Part shown: piece after piece, positions 37,744 to 47,822 of the stretch
Position numbering within the stretch: position 1 is the first letter of the stretch
Layout of the letters: each line of letters begins with the position of its first letter
Position numbers and translations under genes: made by a program
Notes under the pieces: model-generated
What the model was told of the DNA's origin: nothing
Database searches by the model: none
Seen by the model: the letters and a program-made list of their open reading frames with translations, nothing else
Assembly: GCA_016190155.1 (NCBI GenBank)
Contig: JACPRB010000064.1
Location: 1 to 47,822, forward strand
DNA length: 47,822 nucleotides
Direction: 5' to 3'
Source of the DNA: Planctomycetota bacterium
GTDB lineage: Bacteria; Planctomycetota; MHYJ01; JACPRB01

Positions 37744-37983
37744 TCACGGCCCCTCTTTTCCTCCTCCATTGCTGGGCGGCACCCCAGATCCTGGCTTGTC
37801 CGCCCCGGTCTCCACCCGGTTGACCTTGAGCGAGTCTCGATCTTGCCTTTGGACGAAGTTGGCAATCAGTTCGGCGACGCTCTCAACGGCGTCCTGGGTC
37901 TCCTTCGGCGTCAGCGTCATGTAGTGCCGCTTGATTTCCAGCGGCGGCCCCGCCTTCCTACCCTTGATCATTGGCTTTTTCAT
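37744..37983 (-). CDS. Hypothetical small protein, possibly ribbon-helix-helix-like, last ORF of the helicase operon
   Basis: ORF track 37744..37998. ATG 37983 (MKKPMIKGRK...) overlaps the nuclease 3' end by 26 nt. KRHYMTLTPKETQDAVESVAELIANF could form a strand-helix unit. Low-complexity tail. There is no SD, so coding status is uncertain. Confidence 0.3.
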   Translation of the reverse strand: MKKPMIKGRKAGPPLEIKRHYMTLTPKETQDAVESVAELIANFVQRQDRDSLKVNRVETGADKPGSGVPPSNGGGKEGP

Positions 37984-39130
37984 GATATCTACCAGCAATT
38001 CCTAACGATGGCACGTCTGCAACGCGCACAAGAATGGTTCGTGATGTTGGCGTAAGAACACCGTCCGGTCGAACACGAAGGCTAACGAAGCGAACGTGAT
38101 CGCCGACGCCCACGGTCGCGATAGAGCTATGTACGGCCGGGTTCAGCGGGGCGATCTCTGCCCGGCGTGGGCCTTCGCTACCTGCTTGAACATCCACGGT
38201 GATGGCAAGCGCAGCTCCTCCGTGGATTGAGCGTGGCGCCTCAGGAACTGTTCCCTCGACTGCCGCCCCATCCAGATGGCCCGACCAGGCGGGTGACGCC
38301 GCTTGCCAAAATGCCGGGCAGATAAGCTTGTATGGACACCACTTGCAAGCTGCCGGAGAAGGGGCCGCGAACTCTGCCGGCCGAGCCTGTGCGCGGACCT
38401 TCGCGTTGTACGCGTCCAGAAGAGCTATCGCCTCTAGGACCTCCTGCTCACATTCGGCTGGATGGAGGGAGACCTCTACGCCGGTACCAGCGAGCGGGAG
38501 AAGCAGTCCCCGTATGGGCCACGACCCGAGAGCTTCCTTCACGAGATAGCCGTAGATGCGGAGTTGGCGAACGTAGGCACTCTTGACAACCTCCACCTGC
38601 GAATTCTCGTCATACTCAAAGAGTCCGCCGCTTTTGTAGTCCACGACTTCGTCGGCGCGCACAACATCGGGCCTTCCAACGAGCTTGCCGTTGCATGCAA
38701 TGAATTCCTGCTCGCGAATCGTGGCTGAAACGAATGCTCCTGGGCCAGTAGCAGCCACGGGCGCGGCCACAGTGAAGGTAACGAGATCCCCGGCCCGAAG
38801 CCGGACGCTCGCCCGCGCTACATGGTAGCCCGGCCAAGTCACCGGCGATCCGAAGCGGCGATCGAGTGGATGGCGACTGGCCCGCTGGTGTTGTGCTGCG
38901 ATGGCCTGGCTCCAGAGACGCTCGATGGCGTTGTCGAGGGACTCAGTAGCAAGATCAACGCGCGGGATCTTCTCAAGAACCTCGTGGTAGGCGCTTCCAA
39001 GCCAGCCTTTCGGGCTCCCAAGGATGAAAGGGGAGATTCCGGTGGCTCGTGAAAGACCAGCGCGGAGCATGCAAGAGCGCATGACCTCGGCCAGGGTCGG
39101 GCTGGTTGCACGAATCTCGAGCAGCTCCAA
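37958..39130 (-). CDS. Cas4/RecB-family PD-(D/E)xK nuclease with 1+3 Cys (Fe-S-type) cluster and extra C-terminal domain
   Basis: ORF track 37958..39337, numbered here from the track ORF. N-terminal Cys (MRSC, C89). GRPDVV (D224). EVVDYK (E230/D233/K235). QLRIY (Q258..Y262). CKWCPYKLIC (C331, C334, C340), which is the Cas4/AddB-type CX2CX5C. The start is uncertain: TTG 39130 (11 nt after the helicase stop) or ATG 39082. Confidence 0.75.
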   Translation of the reverse strand: MELLEIRATSPTLAEVMRSCMLRAGLSRATGISPFILGSPKGWLGSAYHEVLEKIPRVDLATESLDNAIERLWSQAIAAQHQRASRHPLDRRFGSPVTWPGYHVARASVRLRAGDLVTFTVAAPVAATGPGAFVSATIREQEFIACNGKLVGRPDVVRADEVVDYKSGGLFEYDENSQVEVVKSAYVRQLRIYGYLVKEALGSWPIRGLLLPLAGTGVEVSLHPAECEQEVLEAIALLDAYNAKVRAQARPAEFAAPSPAACKWCPYKLICPAFWQAASPAWSGHLDGAAVEGTVPEAPRSIHGGAALAITVDVQAGSEGPRRAEIAPLNPAVHSSIATVGVGDHVRFVSLRVRPDGVLTPTSRTILVRVADVPSLGIAGRYHEKANDQG

Positions 39131-39141
39131 CTTACCAACGA

Positions 39142-42100
39142 TCAGAACGGCCTCCTCATCACCTCGAAAATTGATTTGAGCGTGACTTGGCAACCGGCTG
39201 CTACTGCTTGGGCATACGCTCCCGCGATCTGAGGTCCGAAGTGGTTCGGGTCGGTGTTCCACAACGGGTGCGTGATGATCTCCACCTGATTCCCGCGGCG
39301 ACCAGCCTGCAGACCCCCATACTGGAGACGCTGCCATCCGGGCATCGCGGCGAAGTAGAAACCGGCGGCGGCCGCGTCAAGTGCCTGCCAGTAGGACACC
39401 GAGAAGTCGACTTGTGCATTCGGGTCCAGCGCTAGTCGAGCCAGATCCAAGCCCAAGCGCCAGTCGAGAATGTTGTGGTACACGAGATTGCTGAAGTCGC
39501 GGAGACAGTCAGGACACGACGTCTGGCAGATGCCGACATGGGCCCCGGCGATGAGGGGTCCGTAAAAAGTGTTGCTTGTCTGACCGACGACGAAGCGCAG
39601 GAGACTCTCGGCCTCGGTCGGAGTCCCGAAATAGGAACTATATCCGGCACCATTCTCCAGACTGTCGGAAATGAAAATCTGACCGACGACTTGCCCATTG
39701 GCGTCCTGCATCACGCGTAGACCGACTTTGAGCTCTCGCTCATGAATGTCCAGACGCACGGCCGCCGCTCTCCGCAGCAGAAAACCCAGAGAGTATAGCG
39801 CGGCTCGGCCTTCAACTCGAAGCGGTACGGCATTGACGCCCACCGGCCAGGTCTGGATTCCAAGAACGAGGACGTCCGTTGGCTTGACTGAGGCGAGAGC
39901 GCGACGGTCAACCGCATTTCCGGGAGCGAGTGGAGGATTGTTGATGCCTATCTTTGTGAGCGCCTCCTGCGTGACCCAAGTCTCGCCCTGGGCGAGCTTC
40001 TCGAAATCGAATTGCCGCCCCTCGTTGTCGTTAATGACGTAGACAGTGTCTTGGCCGCTCCAGATCTCGAAGTTTGCGACGGGTGTCATTGCGATAGGTG
40101 TGACCCCGACTTTTGGGCGCGACGCACGTGCGGTCCACTCGAAGACCCCATCGAAGTCGCGACTCCCCCCAAACCACGTGCGGAACCCTCTGGGCTGCGA
40201 GAGGCGAATCAAGTCGTAGTCGGGGGCAGCCCCACCGCAAACGGGACACGTAGGCGCCGGGTTCTGCGAGCCATCGACCGCTTGGCACCGCCGACACAAT
40301 CCAATGACCAGAGGCGGTCCGAGGGGATTCGGCGCTTGGATGACCGTATTCCCTTGCGGCTGATAGTCGACCACGCCGACCGAAGTATGAATCAGCCCAT
40401 CCTTTACTGTTTCTGAACACGGAGCGAATTGGCTGATTGCGATGTCGAGTTCTCGATCTACGACGCCGTCCGGGGGCCACTCGTACGCCGGGCCTGGCCG
40501 TTCGTGGAATAGAAAACGAACGCGCGTCGGAAAGCCGAACATCGGCAAGATTCCCACATTCGCGAGCCTCTCGCTCAATGACCTCTGTGGAAGCCTCGGA
40601 TCATTCGCCGCATCCGTTACCCGCGAAACGAGCTGGTTCTGGACATAGTTGATGAGTGCGGCTCGCTGTGCATTCAGCTGCTGGCTTGTATGGGAAAGGA
40701 GTACATCGCACGATCGAGCAACAGCAGCAGGGTTATTCTGAATCCATCCATCAACGAGTTGGGCAACTGTCAATCCGGGTGGCGTGCCGGGAGGAGGCTG
40801 GGAAGGCGGTGCGCCCCAGTCTATCGCATCGCCAAACTCGCCGTGGACGTTGTCGCCTCCTTGGGCCACGAATAAGCCGAGTGCGACGAACGCTTGGCGC
40901 AGAACCTCCTTGGCCAGTACGCGCTGGAGGATCGCTTCGCGGCGCATATCGACGTAGGGTTGTGGTGGTGGATCAGAAGTGATCCGATCCGGGCGCTGGA
41001 AGTAGTAGTCATCATGGCTGCGGCCCCGGCATAGGGTCAGCGCGACTGAAAGGCCGGCTCCTCGCCGGCCCGCGCGGCCCACGCGCTGCTGGTAGTTGAA
41101 TCGCATTGGCGGCATGTTAGCCATCATCACCGCGAGCAGTGATCCGATGTCGACACCAGCCTCCATCGTTGTTGTCACGCTGAGGAGGTCGACCGCGTCG
41201 GTGATCATGATCTCGTCAGGCGGCGGCAGGCAGATATCCTGGAAGAGCCGCTGGCGCTTCCTCCCATCGCTCTTGTTCGTCTGCCCCGTGAGCTCCTCAC
41301 AGTTCAGGCGAAAAAGCGAACCCGCCTGGGTAGCGAGGTAGCTGTAGTAATCGGGCGTGAGCTGTGCCGCCGCCACGGGCTGAGGTGGCCCAATGGGAAC
41401 TTGGCATTCCGTGCAGACACCGCCGGACGGATGAAGGTGGACGCGACGGCACTGCCCGCACTCATAGTAGGATGGCCCGGGGCGCATGAGGCAGAGGTTC
41501 TGGACCACTAGGACGTGCTGGGTGAGAGCTACCGCCCCCTGAAGGTAGTTCAGGACGTCCGCAGCGAATGCGGGTGGTACAAGGCCGTGCTGCTGGGCTA
41601 CCGCCGAGAGATACTGCGCTATATAACCTGGTGGATTTGGCTGGCTGGCGGCACCATGGGTCGAAAGCCGCCGCCTTGCACCAAGCAGCCGCATGACGCC
41701 GTCGGCAGCCTCTTGAACGAGTGGACTCGGTGCTGGTATTCCGATTCGGTCCGTCGTTGCGTACGCTATCCGAAGTGACTCAAGGCTGCGCCGCCCAGAG
41801 GCAAAAACGACGTCCATTACTTCGATCAACGACTGGTTTTGAATTCGCAAGAGGTGGTTCTGTTGCGGCTGTGTAAGCTGTGCCGGACCCTTCGCCTGCG
41901 GCGTAGATCCAGGCGATCCCCAGACATACAGGTCACGCCAGCTCCCACTCTTGTTCTGTGGATCTGTCCAGAGCACGTCTTGGATGAAGCCTCCCGGATT
42001 CATTCCGTTGGCGAGGAGGTGTGCCGATGCATCGGCCGCGATCTGGGCAACGTGGAAGGGGCCTTGCGCTGCTCGCGCCATGATGCGCTGGGCTGCCTGC

Positions 42101-44679
42101 TGGCAGTTCAGCCCGGGGTGCGAAGGAGATTGCAGTTGGGCGCTGGCCAGATTCCCAGCCATGGACAACGTAGCCGCTTCTGCCGCATGTGTGCTGCTGA
42201 ATGCAGCCGCGAGAGCCTGTTGCTCTGCTGGCAGCGGCTGCCCTGCGATCTGCGCCGCAAACGCTTGGGCACCCGCGCCCTGCACCGTGATGGCGTAAGT
42301 GATCGCTTGGCGAAGTGCGTCGCGGTAGTGAGAGAAGCGCATGCCCGCCGATAACTTGGCAGCATCCTGCCGACTGTCTGAGAAGACCACAAGTTTGCGC
42401 GACTGAGTAGCTCCCGTACCCACAACTTTGCGGAGAAGTGAATCCGATAGGATTTGGGCGATCTTCTGAAAGCCGGTCCGCAGTGTACGAACGGGAGACC
42501 CAATTTGGCGGCGCGACCAATCCGCATCGCAGCGCGGGCATTTCGCGGGATATGCCTGCCTCGCACTCTCGCCCGCTGGCGGATTCGGGCCATGCATCGA
42601 AGGTACAAAGTAGAGGTAGCCAGGACCTCCGAGCGCTACCCTACCGTCAGCGGGCGTGAACTGGGCGGCCCTCCAGAACCGCTGTACACCATCCTGCGTC
42701 CATTGTGGCGACGCAGGGGTCATTCCTGGACTGGCTGGCCAATAGACAGCATAGCGCGCATAATCGCGATCGAAAGATGCCACGTCTGGCGATGCTTCGA
42801 GATCCGGGTGGTCGGGACTCAGATACCACTCGTTGGGATTCAGGCCAGTGTTGCGCCGGTATCCGCCGAAGAAGATTTCACCGCACGCTTCGCAATAGAG
42901 GAGCTCAAGGACGCGGGAGCCGCAGCCGCAGGTCAGGGTCGGTACGTAGTGAAGGGTGCCCGCAGGACATGCGCCGTTCCGCGGCGGCGCGTGCGAGCAG
43001 CCTGAATTGGTGCAGGCCCAGAGGCCTTGGAGGTTGCGGTAGAAGATGTGCGCGCGCACTGGTAGAGGTGATGTACCATTTGCCCCACGCGCTGCTGAAA
43101 GGCCAGCAAGTAGCCCTTCGAGCGCCTCGATGCCGTCTGCTGGTGCCAGCGCAGGGAACATCGATGCTGCTATCTGCTCGGGAAACCGAGGCTGCAGTTG
43201 GGGGGCGTGTGCAGGTCCGGTGGAACACGCCAATCTTAGCGCTTCTGCCGATGCGATATATCCAAGTGCGGATTCGAGAATTTCCTCGGGGCTGGCGCCC
43301 TGTCCCACTGTGGGGCCTCCAACCGCTGCGCGGAACGCGCTCGCGGCTGGTACTGTGGGAGAAGGCGCCGCGCGAAGATCTTGGCGGAGTTGGCGTAGCG
43401 CGCCCGCGTTTGCACGGACGGCAGCGAACGCGCTTGGGTTGATTGCCTGTGGCATCCCTCCCACAACACGGAACCGATTTCGATCGCGCCCGAAGAACGC
43501 CTCCAGGTACTGGAGACCCTCCGCGCCGCTAGCCACCGACGCGCTGGACGCAATGATACGAAGCTGGTCGGAGTCGGGAGCCAGACCGAGGCGATCGAGC
43601 AGAACCCGGATGAGGTACGCGACCTCAGTTCCAGGCGTTCCTCGATATGTGTGCAGCTCGTCGACGACCAGATGAAATAGGTGGGAGGGGTCCGCCTGGA
43701 GCCACTGTCGCGTCTGGTCAAAGATTGCTGTCTCGACACCGCGCATCAGCATTATGTTAAGCATCGAGTAGTTGGTGATGAGGATGTCCGGCGGGTGATC
43801 TTGCATGTCCCACCGCGACCAGATTTCTCCGCCGTCCATGCTGGGGAAGAAGAAGCGTGTCGCAGGTGGTGATCCGGCGACAAGCTGCGCGTCGCGTTCG
43901 ATACTGGCAAGTTCAGCCCGTAACCTGGTTGTCGCCGCTGCCGTTCTATTCCCCGATACGGGAGTACGCCCAGTGTAGCGCCCGAAATAGAATCGATTTC
44001 CGGATCGCTGGGATTGCAACCACGCACGCGCTTGGGTTCCGTCGAGGCCGCTACGAAGGCGAGCGAGCTGATCCTCGACGAGCGCGTTAAGCGGATAAAG
44101 GATTAGTGCGCGAACAGCCGGAGGTCGCACTGTTGGGTTCTCGTGGGTGCGCTGCGGAATCCGCGGTGTCCAGCGCCTCCGGCTCCCCTGCATCGACCAG
44201 TGATTCCACCAGTCCCATTGTGCCGGCCGGGGACCGGGCGGTCCCCACCCTAGCGATTCGCGAATCAGCGACGCGGCGATTGGCAGCAAGAAGCACTCCG
44301 TCTTTCCCGAACCCGTGCCCGTCGTGACAACGACATCGTGACCACCGGCGGTGGACTCTGCGAAGACTTCCCGTTGGTGTGTGTAGAGCTCGCGTGTGGG
44401 TGGGAACAGCCCCTGCGACACAAAAGTGACCAAGTCTGTGAGTGCAGCAGGTGTCCAAGACGATCCCAGTAGGGACTGGGCTACCTGCTGGAAGGTCTGC
44501 CCACAGGCCTGGTAGGCGGGTACTGGCTCAATCAGCGGACGCCGGTAGAGCCGGCCATCGGTATCGAGCAACTGACGCCGTTCTGCGACGAGGTCGGGAT
44601 ACCGGAGGTCAAACGGGCTGTCAAGGTACCGCAGGTAGGTGTCGCGAAGATCTTCGAAGATCGCAAGGGGATTGCTCAT
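39142..44679 (-). CDS. Giant SF2 DExH-box helicase fused to a DUF1998-like zinc-binding C-terminal module (DruE-like / DrmA+DrmB-like)
   Basis: 1845 aa.
- ATG 44679 forms an ATGA overlap with the upstream gene stop.
- Q-motif and Walker A: LYTHQREVF...[12 protein letters not shown] (K126).
- DELH at aa 340-343, and IIASSAS.
- Motif IV-like [13 protein letters not shown] (aa 763-775).
- Motifs V and VI: [11 protein letters not shown] and [11 protein letters not shown] (aa 1197-1207).
- C-terminal region with CRRC...CPVC (aa 1462-1481), [11 protein letters not shown] and CQTSCPDC (aa 1718-1725), as in MrfA/DrmB-type DUF1998 domains. Confidence 0.85.
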
Positions 44680-45632
44680 CGGAGCTCCTGTCGAAGCAGC
44701 GCGGACGCGAGGCCGGCGATTGCCTGTGGGATCTCAGCGTAGTGAAGGATGCCCGTTTGTGCGACACCTGCTTCATAGGACGGCGGTGACCCCGAGCACA
44801 GAATCAGGGCCCGCTCCACTAGGAATGGCGGCCGACAACTTGAGGGAACAGTGAGGCGGCGATTGATGGCATCGTACCGAAGTACCCGGCGGCGGCACCG
44901 CCTGAGCACGAGATACTTGCCTACCTGGCCAGGTACCTGGAATGCATTGCCCTTCGAGCAGAGCAAAACCTGGCGCTGGTGCCGGAGCGAAAAGCGGAAG
45001 AGACCTCCAGAAGGGGAAAGGGCTTCCTCGCGCGTCGCGGCCTTCCAACCGAGGTCAGAGGTTGAAAAGTGCTCAATTCTCCAGTCGGTGCCGAACGGTA
45101 AAGGGGTCTGCCGGCGCACCGCCGAATCGTCGATCGGCGGGAGGGTCGTCAAGATTGCAGCCGGCGCGTCATGCTGCAGGACGAGGCCGACGCGCTCAGC
45201 AAGAGCGGCGAGCGAGTGAGCATCCCTGGCCACGATACGAATCTGGTCCGGGCAGGATGGAAACGGCAACGTCTCCAGTTCTTCCGTTACGGGTGCCTCG
45301 TGAAGCCGCCGCAGCAACTTGTCCGATCGCGCGCCTGCAAGTATCCCGAGCCATCCACGAGCATGCTGCGTCACAGCCAGGCTCGGAGGTGTCACGCGCC
45401 AATCGCTGCCCCGAGCTCCGGCGAAGAACTCCGCGTGCCCGAGGCGCTGTAGGTTGAGACGCAGTGCCTGGTAGAGCGGAAGAGCGTATTGGTCGGTGGT
45501 GCTATCCTCTTCGGTTTCGTCTTGCTCGCCATCGTTGTCGCCCAAGTGGAGCTCTTCAACGGCGACGCGGAACTGCTGCCATGATCCCTCGCGCCGCGCT
45601 GACATCCAGAGCAGGAGCGAATTGGCGCTCAT
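44676..45632 (-). CDS. Hypothetical protein (318 aa), no recognisable domain, translationally coupled on both sides
   Basis: ORF track 44676..45680. ATG 45632 ([21 protein letters not shown]) forms an ATGA overlap with the upstream stop. Its own stop forms an ATGA overlap with the helicase start. Confidence 0.7.
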
Positions 45633-47764
45633 CGGGGACTTCTCCGGATGGTTCTCGCTTGTCGCTTGTATTCCCGCCACAGCGAGAGCGTGTCAGGGTC
45701 CCCGGGATCGAGTTGAAGTCCTTTTCGACCCGCGTCCAGAATCGCTGCGCACCATGATGAGAGCAGCCTCGACTGCCCCCTGTTCGTCGGGCGCGCGGGT
45801 GACTGAACCGGTAGAAGACCACCGATTCGGAGGACGCGAGCAGTCCGCTTGTCGCATCTGAGGGAATCAACGGGTATCGCCCAGACAGGCTCAAACCACG
45901 GGAACCCTATGCATGTGCGAGTGAGAAGTTCGGTACGAACATCGCATGTGTGGAGCTGCCCTGGCACCGCACCAACAAGGACACAGTTGGAAGCGGGCGC
46001 AACGAAGGGTCGGCTGTCCTTGTGCGCCGTCATGGGAGGGCGAACAACGACGCCGCAGATGGCAGGCCGGGACGTGCCCCCCAAGATGAATTCCCCCATG
46101 GACCAAGTGTACGCGTCCCACGGCTCCCAGGCTTCGGCACCCTCTCGAATCCAGTAAGTCTTGGAGGCGCTCAGGCACCAGATGCTGTGCTTGCCTGGGG
46201 TGTCCCATCCAGGCGCCGCGTACGTTCCGGCAGCGGTCAGCACGGACGACTGTCCATCGATGAGGATGTTGCCCGCAGCGGCCGCGTCGCCGCGCAGGCG
46301 AATTCGCGGAGGATACCCCGCCAGCCAGGTTGCGCGTTCGAGGCGTATGCCGCCCTCCAGGACAAGTTCGACGTTCGCAAGCGGCCTAAGGGCATCGAGA
46401 ATGTCGCCGGTCGGGCTGGGAGGAATCGGCGTTCGTGGAATGACTCCTTTCAACCCGAGCCATCCCTCCGGGATTCCAGCGGCTTGGTCCAGCACTGTCG
46501 GATGGGGACTGCCAGTTGTCGCGATGGCCTCCTTTACCTCAGGAAGGCGGTTCGCAGTACAGAGAACGACATGCTCCTCCCCAAGAAGGAGTCGCGGGAG
46601 GGTGACAAAACCGCTGAGATCGCCGTGACGGCAAAGGACGAAGACCTCGCGCCCGCTCAAAGACCATCGCACGCTCCCCCCATCATCGAGCGTGCCTCCC
46701 CATTCCACTCCGTTCCGCAGCAGAGAGCCGATCGCGGGGAGTGCAACGTCCTGATACCACTCCTCCTGCAGTGCGATGAGCTCGGGTGGACTACCTGATC
46801 CCGAGACAGCGAACTGATTCGGTAGCGCGGCACTCCGGTGGGGCAGCAAGGAAACTCTGCAGAAGCCTCCTTTCTCGAGGGCGAGGCGAACTTCGATTCG
46901 AAGAGCGCGCTCCCGTTCCGTGGGCTCTCCGGTAGTCACGCCGGTCGTGTTAGGTTTGGTCGGAATGGTTGGCGTTCGAGCGATCGGCCGGTACTGTCGG
47001 GGAGTCATGGGGCGCTTTGTCGGAACTTTCTTCCGCTTCTCGACAGCCGGCGACTCAAGCTCAGGATCGGCGGTTGTTTCCTGCTCTGCTTCCAGTGGTG
47101 CCGGAGGAAGAATGCCCTCGACCTCGGTTTCGCGCTCGCTTTCGGTCTCGACGTCAAGATCGTCGGAAGGCAAGTCCTCAACCGACGGATCAGGCGAGCT
47201 CACTATTGGTGTTGATGACGTTTCGGAGGGCGCAGTGCGTGGAGGAGCCTCTGGGAGAGCAACAACCGCTGCCTCGGTCACGGACACCTCGCCACCAGAC
47301 TTTGTGGCGTCCGCCGCTTCATTCAGAGCCTCCTCGATGTTCTGCGTTGATTTGACGGGCGCATCCTGCGGTGCAACCAAGGTCGGCGCGGGAGCTTCGT
47401 TAATTTCGACGTCGCTTGTCCTTCTCTCCAAGTTAGGCGCACCCTCATGAGCCGTACCCGACACCGATTCGAGGTCTTTACGAGTGGGACAACTTTCGCT
47501 CTGTTCGGCGGCATCCTCGGCTCCGGCAATTCCCGCAGATGTAGGTGGTTGGTTATTCTCTGCCGAAGTAGCATCAATTTCTGGAAGCTCTGGCGGCGTC
47601 GCCAACGGAGGTTCAGACGGCAGTATCTGTGCAGGGGCGTCGCCGGCGACAGCGTGGTGTTCCACCGCTTCGCTATATGGTTCAGCCGCACCTTTCCTGT
47701 CCGCCTCACCGACTTCCACTTTGAGCGTCGGCTCGCCAGTCTTAACGCCCTCGCTCGCTTGCAA
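45629..47764 (-). CDS. Hypothetical protein (up to 711 aa): acidic Pro/Ala/Glu/Ser/Thr-rich low-complexity N-terminal ~270 aa plus ~430-aa globular C-terminal region of unknown fold
   Basis: The reading frame is open from TTG 47764. The first in-frame ATG is at 47008 (aa 253, RPMTPRQ). The low-complexity part still shows codon-like G-first periodicity (GAG/GCG/GAA...). The C-terminal part is Trp/Cys-containing and ordered-looking. The start is uncertain. Confidence 0.6.
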   Translation of the reverse strand: MQASEGVKTGEPTLKVEVGEADRKGAAEPYSEAVEHHAVAGDAPAQILPSEPPLATPPELPEIDATSAENNQPPTSAGIAGAEDAAEQSESCPTRKDLESVSGTAHEGAPNLERRTSDVEINEAPAPTLVAPQDAPVKSTQNIEEALNEAADATKSGGEVSVTEAAVVALPEAPPRTAPSETSSTPIVSSPDPSVEDLPSDDLDVETESERETEVEGILPPAPLEAEQETTADPELESPAVEKRKKVPTKRPMTPRQYRPIARTPTIPTKPNTTGVTTGEPTERERALRIEVRLALEKGGFCRVSLLPHRSAALPNQFAVSGSGSPPELIALQEEWYQDVALPAIGSLLRNGVEWGGTLDDGGSVRWSLSGREVFVLCRHGDLSGFVTLPRLLLGEEHVVLCTANRLPEVKEAIATTGSPHPTVLDQAAGIPEGWLGLKGVIPRTPIPPSPTGDILDALRPLANVELVLEGGIRLERATWLAGYPPRIRLRGDAAAAGNILIDGQSSVLTAAGTYAAPGWDTPGKHSIWCLSASKTYWIREGAEAWEPWDAYTWSMGEFILGGTSRPAICGVVVRPPMTAHKDSRPFVAPASNCVLVGAVPGQLHTCDVRTELLTRTCIGFPWFEPVWAIPVDSLRCDKRTARVLRIGGLLPVQSPARPTNRGQSRLLSSWCAAILDAGRKGLQLDPGDPDTLSLWREYKRQARTIRRSPR

Positions 47765-47822
47765 TTCCTTAGTAGAATTGTCGATGAATTTCTCGCTCGC
47801 ATCGACCTTTCCTTTAGTATGC

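What the first reader, a model, noticed from the sequence alone, without database searches (positions are those of the whole stretch)
45629..47764. First operon gene encodes a long acidic intrinsically-disordered-like N-terminus fused to an unknown ~430-aa domain
About the first 270 codons are dominated by E, A, P, S, T, D and V. They are almost devoid of aromatic residues and contain no Met between the TTG at 47764 and M253 (ATG 47008). A short basic patch follows (KRKKVPTKRPMTPRQYRPIARTPTIPTKP). After that comes an ordered-looking Trp/Cys-containing region (GFCRVSLLPHR...WYQDVALPAIG...WDTPGKHSIWCLSASKTYWIREGAEAWEPWDAYTWSMGEF...) with no motif I can name.

Such long acidic tails are unusual in bacterial defence or repair proteins. 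It could be a DNA mimic or auto-inhibitory tail, a phase-separation module, or simply a mis-called start, with the real protein beginning at or near M253.
Basis: seen in the sequence. Interest (0 to 1): 0.65.

Follow-up and report, generated by a model that had tools for sequence, protein, structure and literature searches.

The report
Membrane-tethered Druantia subunit with disordered linker
The long acidic stretch is real and is predicted to be disordered. It looks like the flexible linker of a phage-defence (Druantia-type) protein whose relatives are anchored in the cell membrane, and the gene's true beginning is missing because the contig ends inside it.

Summary
The ORF at 45629..47764(-) exists and its composition is as described: net charge -35, one aromatic residue in 252. 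It is not shown to start at TTG 47764. The frame stays open to the last base of the window, and the window is a whole 47,822-nt groundwater-metagenome contig. The gene is therefore cut at its 5' end.

The operon is Druantia type IV-like: a divergent DruF, then DruL4, DruE4 and a DruK nuclease, joined by ATGA overlaps.

Relatives number 996 cluster representatives and occur in MAGs of at least 9 phyla. They share one architecture:
- An N-terminal transmembrane helix followed by an Arg/Lys cluster (N-out, C-in). A minority have an amphipathic helix instead.
- An unalignable, net-negative, low-complexity linker of 120-800 aa.
- A conserved R-x-P-R-Q-Y-R-P-x-x-R motif.
- A ~430-aa beta-rich domain that models confidently and has no structural match.

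M253 aligns to a consensus Arg inside that motif. All five "tailless" homologues I checked are mis-called starts.

In related loci a C5 DNA methylase and an HhH-GPD glycosylase gene lie directly upstream.

Most likely function (inferred): a ZipA-like cytoplasmic tether that holds the DruF/DruL/DruE machinery at the inner membrane. This is a new variant of a known kind.

The parts
45629..47822 (-). DruF-like gene, truncated at its 5' end by the contig end. There are 730 codons in the window, and the 711 counted from TTG 47764 are only the part after the first in-frame start-like codon.
   Evidence: The frame is open to the window end. P0001 is 730 aa on a contig of 47,822 nt. PADLOC gives DruF2 at E 1e-10 and DruF4 at E 3e-5, over residues 365-503 only. 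Pfam finds nothing.
47009..47821 (-). Acidic, predicted-disordered linker. It covers ORF residues 1-252 plus the 19 codons upstream. In relatives this segment lies between the membrane anchor and the conserved motif.
   Evidence: Composition and charge. AlphaFold2 pLDDT 32-43 with no secondary structure. Uversky test calls it disordered. No tandem repeats. Homologous linkers are net negative in 73/78 and 90/93.
46949..47008 (-). Conserved basic, proline-rich junction motif, M-T-P-R-Q-Y-R-P-I-A-R...P (family consensus R-x-P-R-Q-Y-R-P-x-x-R-x-P-x-x-x-R).
   Evidence: Column conservation is P 86%, R 89%, Y 94%, R 82%, P 86% and R 79%, and M253 aligns to R (64%). Spacing to the WYQD motif is fixed at 78 +/- 3 residues.
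45632..46912 (-). Conserved ~430-aa beta-rich multi-subdomain region ending in a helical hairpin (ORF residues 285-711). Fold unassigned.
   Evidence: AlphaFold2 mean pLDDT 87.8 and pTM 0.69. Foldseek against PDB and BFVD finds no match at E<=1e-3 and TM<=0.18. The PDB profile search finds nothing in the domain. 27 invariant columns.
44676..45632 (-). DruL4-like gene. Its likely start is ATG 45632, which overlaps the DruF-like stop as ATGA.
   Evidence: PADLOC DruL4 at E 2e-27, aligned from residue 17. It also matches the C-terminal third of DruF2. ATGA overlap.
39142..44679 (-). DruE4 gene: a large YprA/MrfA-type SF2 helicase with a Zn-binding C-terminal domain.
   Evidence: PADLOC DruE4 at E 0, 1763 bits. 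Pfam DEAD, Helicase_C and MZB. ATGA overlap with DruL.
37958..39337 (-). DruK-like PD-(D/E)xK nuclease with a Cas4-type C-x2-C-x5-C motif. Its start is uncertain. ATG 39337 overlaps DruE by 196 nt, and the alternatives are TTG 39130 and ATG 39082.
   Evidence: PADLOC DruK at E 4e-27. Pfam PDDEXK_1 at E 2e-17. Candidate starts. Sequence.

Best explanation
**What it is.** The ORF is a 5'-truncated copy of a divergent DruF-type subunit of a Druantia type IV-like anti-phage operon: DruF-like, DruL, the DruE helicase and a DruK nuclease. In relatives a C5 DNA methylase and an HhH-GPD glycosylase precede these genes.

**Family architecture (shown).**
- A single N-terminal membrane anchor. It is usually a ~22-residue transmembrane helix followed by 5-6 Arg/Lys, which indicates N-out/C-in, so everything after it is cytoplasmic. 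A minority have an amphipathic helix instead.
- A fast-evolving, net-negative linker of 120-800 residues. In some members it is disordered and P/S/T/E-rich, as here. In others it is an E/A/R/Q/K-rich helical repeat.
- A conserved PRQYRP basic motif.
- A conserved ~430-aa beta-rich domain.

The acidic 'tail' in the window is that linker. The anchor and the start codon most likely lie just beyond the contig end.

**How it works (inferred).** The protein acts like ZipA in cell division. The anchor fixes it to the inner face of the cytoplasmic membrane. The extended, negatively charged linker keeps the head domain off the anionic membrane while letting it search a shell of some tens of nanometres. 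The head domain binds DruL and thereby holds or recruits DruE near the membrane, where incoming linear phage DNA with free ends appears. DruL is fused to DruF in type II systems and is translationally coupled here. The methylase of the full system would mark self DNA.
For: **Truncation.** The frame is open to the window end. The product is on record as 730 aa on a 47,822-nt contig. A Logan contig from the same groundwater study runs 79 nt further.

**System identity.** DruE4 at E 0, DruL4 at 2e-27, DruK at 4e-27, DruF2/DruF4 weak. ATGA couplings. DruL matches the C-terminal part of DruF2, and the ORF1 domain matches its middle.

**Anchor.**
- 70 homologues have a transmembrane helix. The uncharged span averages 22 residues. 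K+R in the 15-residue flanks is 0.46 on the N side and 5.7 on the C side, and the C flank exceeds the N flank in 68/70.
- 26 of the 30 closest homologues have it.
- 18 of 23 evaluable genome loci have it in the upstream frame.
- 44 of 93 further representatives have a clear transmembrane helix, and about 25 have the amphipathic N-terminus MRALLRAIASVLRSWL (mean hydrophobic moment 0.59, z 2.5).

**Linker.**
- Unalignable even to the closest relatives.
- Median length 250-300 residues, net negative in 73/78 and 90/93.
- pLDDT 32-43.

**Motif and domain.**

**Mis-called starts.** Five of five checked.

**Context.** Methylase plus HhH-GPD upstream.

**Analogy.** ZipA architecture as described in PMC6904479. 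DruE of Druantia III loads on free 3' DNA ends (bioRxiv 10.64898/2026.05.12.722862).
Against: - The anchor is not in the window. Its presence in this copy is inferred from relatives, the nearest of which is only ~50% identical.
- Membrane insertion, topology, the DruF-DruL-DruE contacts and any defence activity are untested. Druantia type IV is a computational class only (PMC8565338).
- The PADLOC DruF hits are weak and cover only ~130 residues.
- The last ~60 nt of the window fall to ~42-58% GC, which could mean an intergenic region is near.
- About 15-25% of homologues with tails show neither a transmembrane helix nor an amphipathic helix. Many of these may be wrong starts, but that was not checked.
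Confidence: 0.6

Rival explanations
1. The acidic segment is mainly a regulatory DNA mimic or auto-inhibitory tail. It folds back on the basic PRQYRP motif or on DNA-binding surfaces of DruF, DruL or DruE, and is displaced when phage DNA appears. Tethering is secondary.
For: Net negative charge is conserved across the family (73/78, 90/93). The window copy is strongly acidic (-35 over 252 residues), with local D/E clusters. A conserved Arg-rich motif lies directly next to the linker.
Against: Charge density is low in most members: median about -13 over 250 and -18 over 304 residues, or about -0.05 per residue. Half of the linkers are mixed-charge E/A/R/Q/K helical repeats. Length varies 120-800 residues with no conserved acidic motif. 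This idea does not explain the conserved membrane anchor.
Confidence: 0.2
2. This particular copy is an anchorless, soluble variant whose translation begins within the window, at TTG 47764 or GTG 47719, or a few codons beyond it.
For: GC content drops at the window end. Some homologues with tails show no anchor. The window sequence itself has no hydrophobic segment: the highest 21-residue Kyte-Doolittle mean in the tail is 0.63.
Against: No in-frame stop precedes TTG 47764, and there is no Shine-Dalgarno-like sequence before it (the upstream sequence is TCGACAATTCTACTAAGGAA, with AAGGAA directly abutting the TTG). 26 of the 30 closest homologues are anchored, and the other four look like wrong or partial starts. 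All five annotated short forms checked were artefacts.
Confidence: 0.12
3. The protein is exported. The N-terminal helix is a signal anchor with the linker and domain in the periplasm, giving a TolA/TonB-type topology that senses events at the envelope.
For: The layout of anchor, long linker and globular head resembles TolA and TonB. A profile search picks up TolA weakly through the linker (E 0.016).
Against: The positive-inside rule points the other way: K+R is 0.46 before the helix and 5.7 after it. The amphipathic-helix class has no export signal. The partners DruL, DruE and DruK are cytoplasmic DNA enzymes, and the genes are translationally coupled. The TolA match is compositional only.
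Confidence: 0.05
4. The upstream 252 codons are not translated. The real protein starts at M253, and the open frame is a by-product of high GC content.
For: M253 is the first in-frame ATG. High-GC DNA carries many long spurious ORFs. 19 of 117 homologues are annotated without a tail.
Against: M253 aligns to a consensus Arg inside a conserved motif. Tails, each opening with a transmembrane helix, a basic cluster and a start codon, recur across at least 9 phyla. Five of five short annotations are wrong. The codon-position GC pattern (GC1 > GC3 > GC2) continues through the tail.
Confidence: 0.03

Closest known systems
Druantia type IV (DruE + DruF + DruL), the computational class of PADLOC (Payne et al. 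2021, PMC8565338)
   Same: DruE4 and DruL4 match strongly. The first gene matches DruF models in the collinear position. The gene order is DruF-DruL-DruE.
   Different: The DruF match is weak and partial (E 1e-10 to 1e-3, ~130 residues). Related loci add a DruM2-like C5 methylase, an HhH-GPD glycosylase and often a DruK nuclease, whereas type IV was defined as lacking DruM. No membrane anchor or disordered linker is described in that paper for DruF, and a search of the held library for papers holding 'Druantia', 'transmembrane' and 'intrinsically disordered' together found none.
Druantia type II DruF (about 1,010-1,030 aa)
   Same: The ORF1 domain matches DruF2 profile positions 366-491 and DruL matches positions 749-1010. 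So type II DruF corresponds to a fusion of these two genes. A C5 methylase accompanies both.
   Different: The gene is split here. No DruG is present. I could not examine whether DruF2 has an anchor or linker.
ZipA of E. coli (architecture only; PMC6904479)
   Same: A short periplasmic N-terminus, one transmembrane helix, a charged juxtamembrane stretch, a long unstructured linker and a C-terminal globular partner-binding domain in the cytoplasm (compared).
   Different: There is no sequence or fold relationship. The linker here is acidic or E/A/R/Q/K-rich rather than P/Q-rich and is 2-6 times longer. The partner is a defence helicase module, not FtsZ.
TolA / TonB
   Same: An N-terminal anchor, a long extended linker (the helical A/E/K-rich linker of TolA resembles half of the homologous linkers) and a globular head. 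A weak compositional hit is seen.
   Different: The predicted topology is opposite, cytoplasmic rather than periplasmic. The head domain is not homologous.
Druantia type III DruH (ssDNA-binding partner of DruE; bioRxiv 10.64898/2026.05.12.722862)
   Same: A large accessory protein of unknown fold family encoded directly upstream of DruE. It is a plausible functional counterpart.
   Different: PADLOC gives no DruH hit for ORF1 at E<=0.01. DruH is described as soluble, with no anchor or linker mentioned. DNA binding by the DruF-like domain is untested.

Membership tests
Druantia type IV (PADLOC definition) | DruE-type large YprA/MrfA helicase present | tested here: met
   DruE4 at E 0, 1763 bits, aligned end to end. 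DEAD, Helicase_C and MZB.
Druantia type IV (PADLOC definition) | DruL present next to DruE | tested here: met
   DruL4 at E 2e-27 over 305 of 309 profile positions.
Druantia type IV (PADLOC definition) | DruF present | tested here: inconclusive
   Only residues 365-503 match (DruF2 at E 1e-10, DruF4 at 3e-5 and 1e-3). A relative, P0113, aligns to DruF4 positions 351-677 at E 4e-7. Another, P0027, matches nothing.
Druantia type IV (PADLOC definition) | No DruM methylase and no DruG | not testable with these tools
   The contig ends inside the DruF-like gene. In 6 of 6 looked-up loci and 18 of 28 genome loci a C5 methylase lies upstream, and the one scanned (L004) hits DruM2 at E 5e-52. So this feature is probably not met.
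Bitopic N-out/C-in membrane tether (ZipA-like architecture; analogy, not homology) | Single N-terminal transmembrane helix with positive charges on the C-terminal side | not testable with these tools
   Absent from the window because of truncation. Met in relatives: 70 homologues, flank K+R 0.46 versus 5.7.
Bitopic N-out/C-in membrane tether (ZipA-like architecture; analogy, not homology) | Long unstructured linker followed by a folded C-terminal domain | tested here: met
   pLDDT 32-43 with no secondary structure over ~265 residues, then >90. Uversky test.
Bitopic N-out/C-in membrane tether (ZipA-like architecture; analogy, not homology) | Homology of the head domain to the ZipA FtsZ-binding domain | tested here: not met
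   No PDB match by fold or by profile.
DNA-mimic proteins or acidic auto-inhibitory tails | High, conserved negative charge density | tested here: inconclusive
   The sign of the charge is conserved (73/78, 90/93), but the median density is only about -0.05 per residue. The window copy is -0.13.
TolA/TonB-type periplasm-spanning proteins | Linker and head located in the periplasm | tested here: not met
   The positive-inside rule predicts a cytoplasmic C-terminus in 68/70. The amphipathic-helix subclass has no export signal. This is prediction only.

The most novel reading that the evidence does not exclude
This is an undescribed six-gene, methylation-linked Druantia variant (C5 methylase, HhH-GPD glycosylase, DruF, DruL, DruE, DruK). 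Its DruF subunit would be a membrane-anchored sensor on a long acidic leash. The head domain would patrol the sub-membrane zone, detect incoming phage DNA or the injection event, and switch on the DruE helicase there. The acidic linker would double as an electrostatic auto-inhibitor of the adjacent Arg-rich PRQYRP motif. That would make it the first YprA-helicase defence system with built-in spatial control at the cell envelope.
Probability: 0.2. Interest if true: 0.8.

Novelty: new variant of a known kind. Interest (0 to 1): 0.55.

Why it matters
Druantia is a widespread family of helicase-based phage defences. Only type III has a mechanism so far, and the accessory proteins DruF and DruL have no known role.

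If the DruF-like subunit of this branch is a membrane anchor, a long flexible linker and a conserved head, that gives a concrete, testable idea of where such a system acts. It would act at the inner membrane, where phage DNA enters, and away from the nucleoid.

The work also shows that gene callers often mis-start this family. 19 of 117 homologues are annotated without the linker and anchor, and all five that I checked were wrong. This hides the architecture from domain-based surveys.

The recurrent methylase and HhH-GPD glycosylase pair upstream suggests the system definition in current tools is incomplete.

Tried and rejected
**Recovering the missing 5' end**
- An exact 37-nt scan of the JGI metagenome contigs found nothing.
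- A protein-level scan with the tail found nothing.
- Logan contigs from the same groundwater study cover the end. One runs 79 nt further, but the tool does not print overhangs.

**Naming the head domain**
- Pfam found nothing.
- Foldseek against PDB and BFVD gave only generic beta-sandwich noise.
- A PDB profile search gave only compositional TolA and ribosomal-protein hits in the linker.

**Other checks that led nowhere**
- Tandem repeats in the tail: none.
- GC3 frame analysis: weakly informative, because this island has little GC3 bias.
- My first motif regular expression was too strict and under-counted the motif. It was replaced.

**Literature**
- A search for papers holding 'Druantia', 'transmembrane' and 'intrinsically disordered' together found none, and the YprA-family survey (PMC12458937) does not mention DruF, DruL, 'transmembrane' or 'disordered'.

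**Explanations rejected**
- A start at M253, a non-coding tail and a periplasmic location. See the rival explanations.
Full report
**1. The observation**

The ORF 45629..47764 on the minus strand is real. Its first 252 residues are E 15%, A 14%, P 13%, S 9%, T 8%, V 8% and D 6%. Net charge is -35, with one aromatic residue and one Cys. The first in-frame ATG is at 47008 (M253). Measured against the C-terminal 426 residues of the same protein, so few aromatics (P = 4e-7) and so many acidic residues (P = 5e-8) are not chance.

One part of the description does not hold. Upstream of TTG 47764 the frame reads HTKGKVDASEKFIDNSTKE with no stop up to the last base of the window. The protein database holds this product as 730 aa on a contig of 47,822 nt, which is exactly the window length. 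The gene therefore runs off the contig. TTG 47764 is only the first start-like codon that the ORF lister could see.

The contig is from a groundwater metagenome at 4-7x depth. One Logan contig of the same study reaches 79 nt further. Two scans of the metagenome collection did not recover a longer copy.

**2. The operon**

PADLOC models identify the downstream genes:
- 44676..45680 is DruL4 (E 2e-27).
- 39142..44679 is DruE4 (E 0, 1763 bits, end to end).
- 37958..39337 is DruK, a PD-(D/E)xK nuclease (E 4e-27).

Pfam agrees for the helicase and the nuclease, and finds nothing for ORF1 or DruL. ORF1 matches DruF2 and DruF4 only weakly, over residues 365-503 (E 1e-10 to 1e-3). DruL also matches the C-terminal third of DruF2. 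So type II DruF corresponds to ORF1 plus DruL fused, which argues that the two products work together.

ORF1/DruL and DruL/DruE overlap as ATGA. DruL therefore starts at ATG 45632 rather than at the GTG the ORF lister gave.

Druantia type IV (DruE + DruF + DruL) is a computational class from the PADLOC paper, with no experiment and no domain annotation (PMC8565338). The operon has lower GC (0.60-0.63) than the rest of the window (0.62-0.72, except 0.56 in the first kilobase and 0.61 at 26-27 kb). The rest of the window carries ordinary chromosomal genes.

**3. Relatives**

A sequence search gave 127 homologues. A profile search of 1.84 billion cluster representatives gave 996 at E<=1e-3 and 530 at E<=1e-30. 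In species-representative genomes the family occurs only in MAGs. These include Acidobacteriota, Planctomycetota, Gamma- and Betaproteobacteria, Myxococcota, Bacillota, Bacteroidota, Rhodothermales, Gemmatimonadota and Actinomycetota.

Only the C-terminal 59-71% of the query aligns. Yet most homologues are 600-1,200 aa long.

Their N-termini are the key result. 26 of the 30 closest homologues begin with a hydrophobic helix such as MNLLLRIGGVALVSAIALIVVRSLRGSRR. Over 70 such proteins:
- The uncharged span averages 22 residues.
- K+R in the 15-residue flanks is 0.46 before the helix and 5.7 after it.
- The C-side flank is the more basic one in 68 of 70.

By the positive-inside rule (established knowledge) this is an N-out/C-in anchor, so the linker and domain are cytoplasmic.

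A second class starts with a conserved amphipathic helix, MRALLRAIASVLRSWLNSVRG. Its mean hydrophobic moment is 0.59, with z = 2.5 against shuffles. That fits peripheral membrane binding and cannot drive export.

**4. The linker**

After the anchor comes 120-800 residues of low-complexity sequence, with a median of 250-300. It is net negative in 73/78 and 90/93 proteins.

It comes in two flavours. One is P/S/T/G/E-rich, as in the window. The other is an E/A/R/Q/K-rich helical repeat, which explains the weak TolA hits of the profile.

It is essentially unalignable even to the two closest relatives, while the domain is ~70% identical. AlphaFold2 on the 730-aa product with an alignment gives pLDDT 32-43 and no secondary structure for residues 1-265, and mostly >90 from residue 301. 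Presence, approximate length, charge sign and disorder are therefore conserved, and sequence is not. That is the signature of a functional spacer.

**5. The junction and M253**

A motif, R-x-P-R-Q-Y-R-P-x-x-R-x-P-x-x-x-R, is conserved at 62-94% per column (Tyr 94%). It sits at a fixed 78 +/- 3 residues before the WYQD motif of the domain. M253 occupies the first Arg column of this motif (R in 64%).

Nineteen of 117 homologues are annotated without a tail. I checked five of them:
- P0080 in L001
- P0037 in L002
- P0066 in L003
- P0065, identified with L012 by its contig length and organism name
- P0091, identified with L015 in the same way

In all five the upstream DNA carries, in frame, a start codon, a transmembrane helix, a basic cluster, a linker and the motif. 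In two cases the gene caller had placed a spurious opposite-strand gene there. The "mis-called start at M253" reading is therefore rejected.

**6. The head domain**

Residues 285-711 model with mean pLDDT 87.8 and pTM 0.69. The model is a chain of beta-rich subdomains ending in a helical hairpin.

Foldseek finds nothing at E<=1e-3 in PDB or BFVD. A profile search of PDB sequences finds nothing in the domain. There are 27 invariant columns, mostly W, G and P, plus H, D, K and C, and no recognisable catalytic motif. Its biochemical activity is unknown.

**7. Context in relatives**

In 6 of 6 looked-up loci and 18 of 28 genome loci, a C5 DNA methylase lies upstream. It is PF00145, and the one scanned against PADLOC (from L004) is DruM2-like at E 5e-52. 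In most loci an HhH-GPD glycosylase gene lies between it and the DruF-like gene. In L002 the DruF-like start overlaps the HhH-GPD stop.

DruL and DruE follow in nearly every locus, and a PD-(D/E)xK gene in some. The window lacks the two upstream genes only because the contig ends. The full system thus combines features of Druantia II (methylase, DruF) and Druantia IV (split DruF/DruL).

**8. Mechanism**

*Shown:* the architecture and its conservation.

*Inferred:* the protein is a cytoplasmic membrane tether of the ZipA type. ZipA has a six-residue periplasmic N-terminus, one transmembrane helix, a charged stretch, an unstructured linker and a globular partner-binding domain (PMC6904479).

The net-negative linker would be repelled by the anionic membrane and by DNA. 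It would keep the head extended into a sub-membrane shell. The head, with DruL, would hold or recruit DruE there. In Druantia III, DruE loads on free 3' DNA ends and unwinds, while the accessory DruH binds the ssDNA (bioRxiv 10.64898/2026.05.12.722862). Placing such machinery where linear phage DNA enters, and away from the nucleoid, is a plausible gain.

The main rival is that the acidic linker acts as a DNA mimic or auto-inhibitor of the adjacent Arg-rich motif. This is not excluded, but the low charge density of most linkers (about -0.05 per residue) and their mixed-charge helical variants weaken it.

**9. Verdict**

It is an internal linker of a truncated gene, not an N-terminal tail. It is not a mis-called start.

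The thing is a divergent, membrane-tethered DruF-type subunit of a Druantia II/IV-like system, which is a new variant of a known kind. I found no description of this architecture in the held literature.

My confidence in the architecture is high. My confidence that this copy has an anchor is about 0.8. My confidence in the tether mechanism is moderate.

Noticed in passing
L001-L006 and L007-L034 (e.g. L004:688-2636, L002:6008-7990): A C5 DNA methylase (PF00145) and an HhH-GPD glycosylase gene sit directly upstream of the DruF-like gene in most related loci. The methylase scanned, from L004, is DruM2-like at E 5e-52. This suggests a methylation plus T:G-repair module that is not part of the published Druantia IV definition.
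   Followed up: partly
window 37958-39337 (-): The DruK-like PD-(D/E)xK nuclease carries C-K-W-C-P-Y-K-L-I-C, a C-x2-C-x5-C motif typical of the Cas4/AddB Fe-S cluster. Its annotated ATG 39337 overlaps DruE by 196 nt, so the start is more likely TTG 39130 or ATG 39082.
   Followed up: partly
homologues P0105, P0113, P0117, P0141, P0149 and others (N-termini): A sub-family replaces the transmembrane helix with a conserved amphipathic N-terminal helix, MRALLRAIASVLRSWLNSVRG (hydrophobic moment ~0.6). This is possibly a peripheral membrane-targeting sequence.
   Followed up: partly
L001:7161-7700(-), L003:8140-8724(-); proteins P0029-P0106 (19 short forms): Gene callers systematically mis-start this family. 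In two of the loci checked (L001, L003) they also place a spurious opposite-strand gene over the low-complexity linker. All five short forms checked were wrong.
   Followed up: yes
window 46500-46708 and 46797: Logan contigs of the same groundwater study show a second strain (10 differences in 209 nt in run X1). They also show a 1-nt deletion at 46797 in a contig of depth 2.4 in run X2, which is probably an assembly error but would shift the frame of the head domain.
   Followed up: no
window 38000-47822 versus 1-38000: The defence operon has GC 0.60-0.63, against 0.62-0.72 across most of the rest of the contig (two 1-kb bins are lower: 0.56 at the start and 0.61 at 26-27 kb). The rest carries chromosomal genes such as COX3, an Fe-S oxidoreductase, a histidine kinase and glycosyltransferases. 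This is consistent with a horizontally acquired island. In L003 the system lies among TraD/TraG-type conjugation genes.
   Followed up: partly
window 47802 (-): An ATG preceded by AAAGGAAAGG (Shine-Dalgarno-like, with 4 nt between it and the ATG) opens a 159-aa Arg-rich ORF (47323..47802) in another frame over the linker. It looks like an off-frame artefact of the E/A-rich coding sequence. I did not test it further.
   Followed up: no
L004:11521-13365; L002:1942-5141: Neighbouring defence genes are present in related loci: a SIR2_2 protein downstream of DruE in L004, and an McrBC-type pair upstream in L002. This is the expected defence-island context.
   Followed up: no
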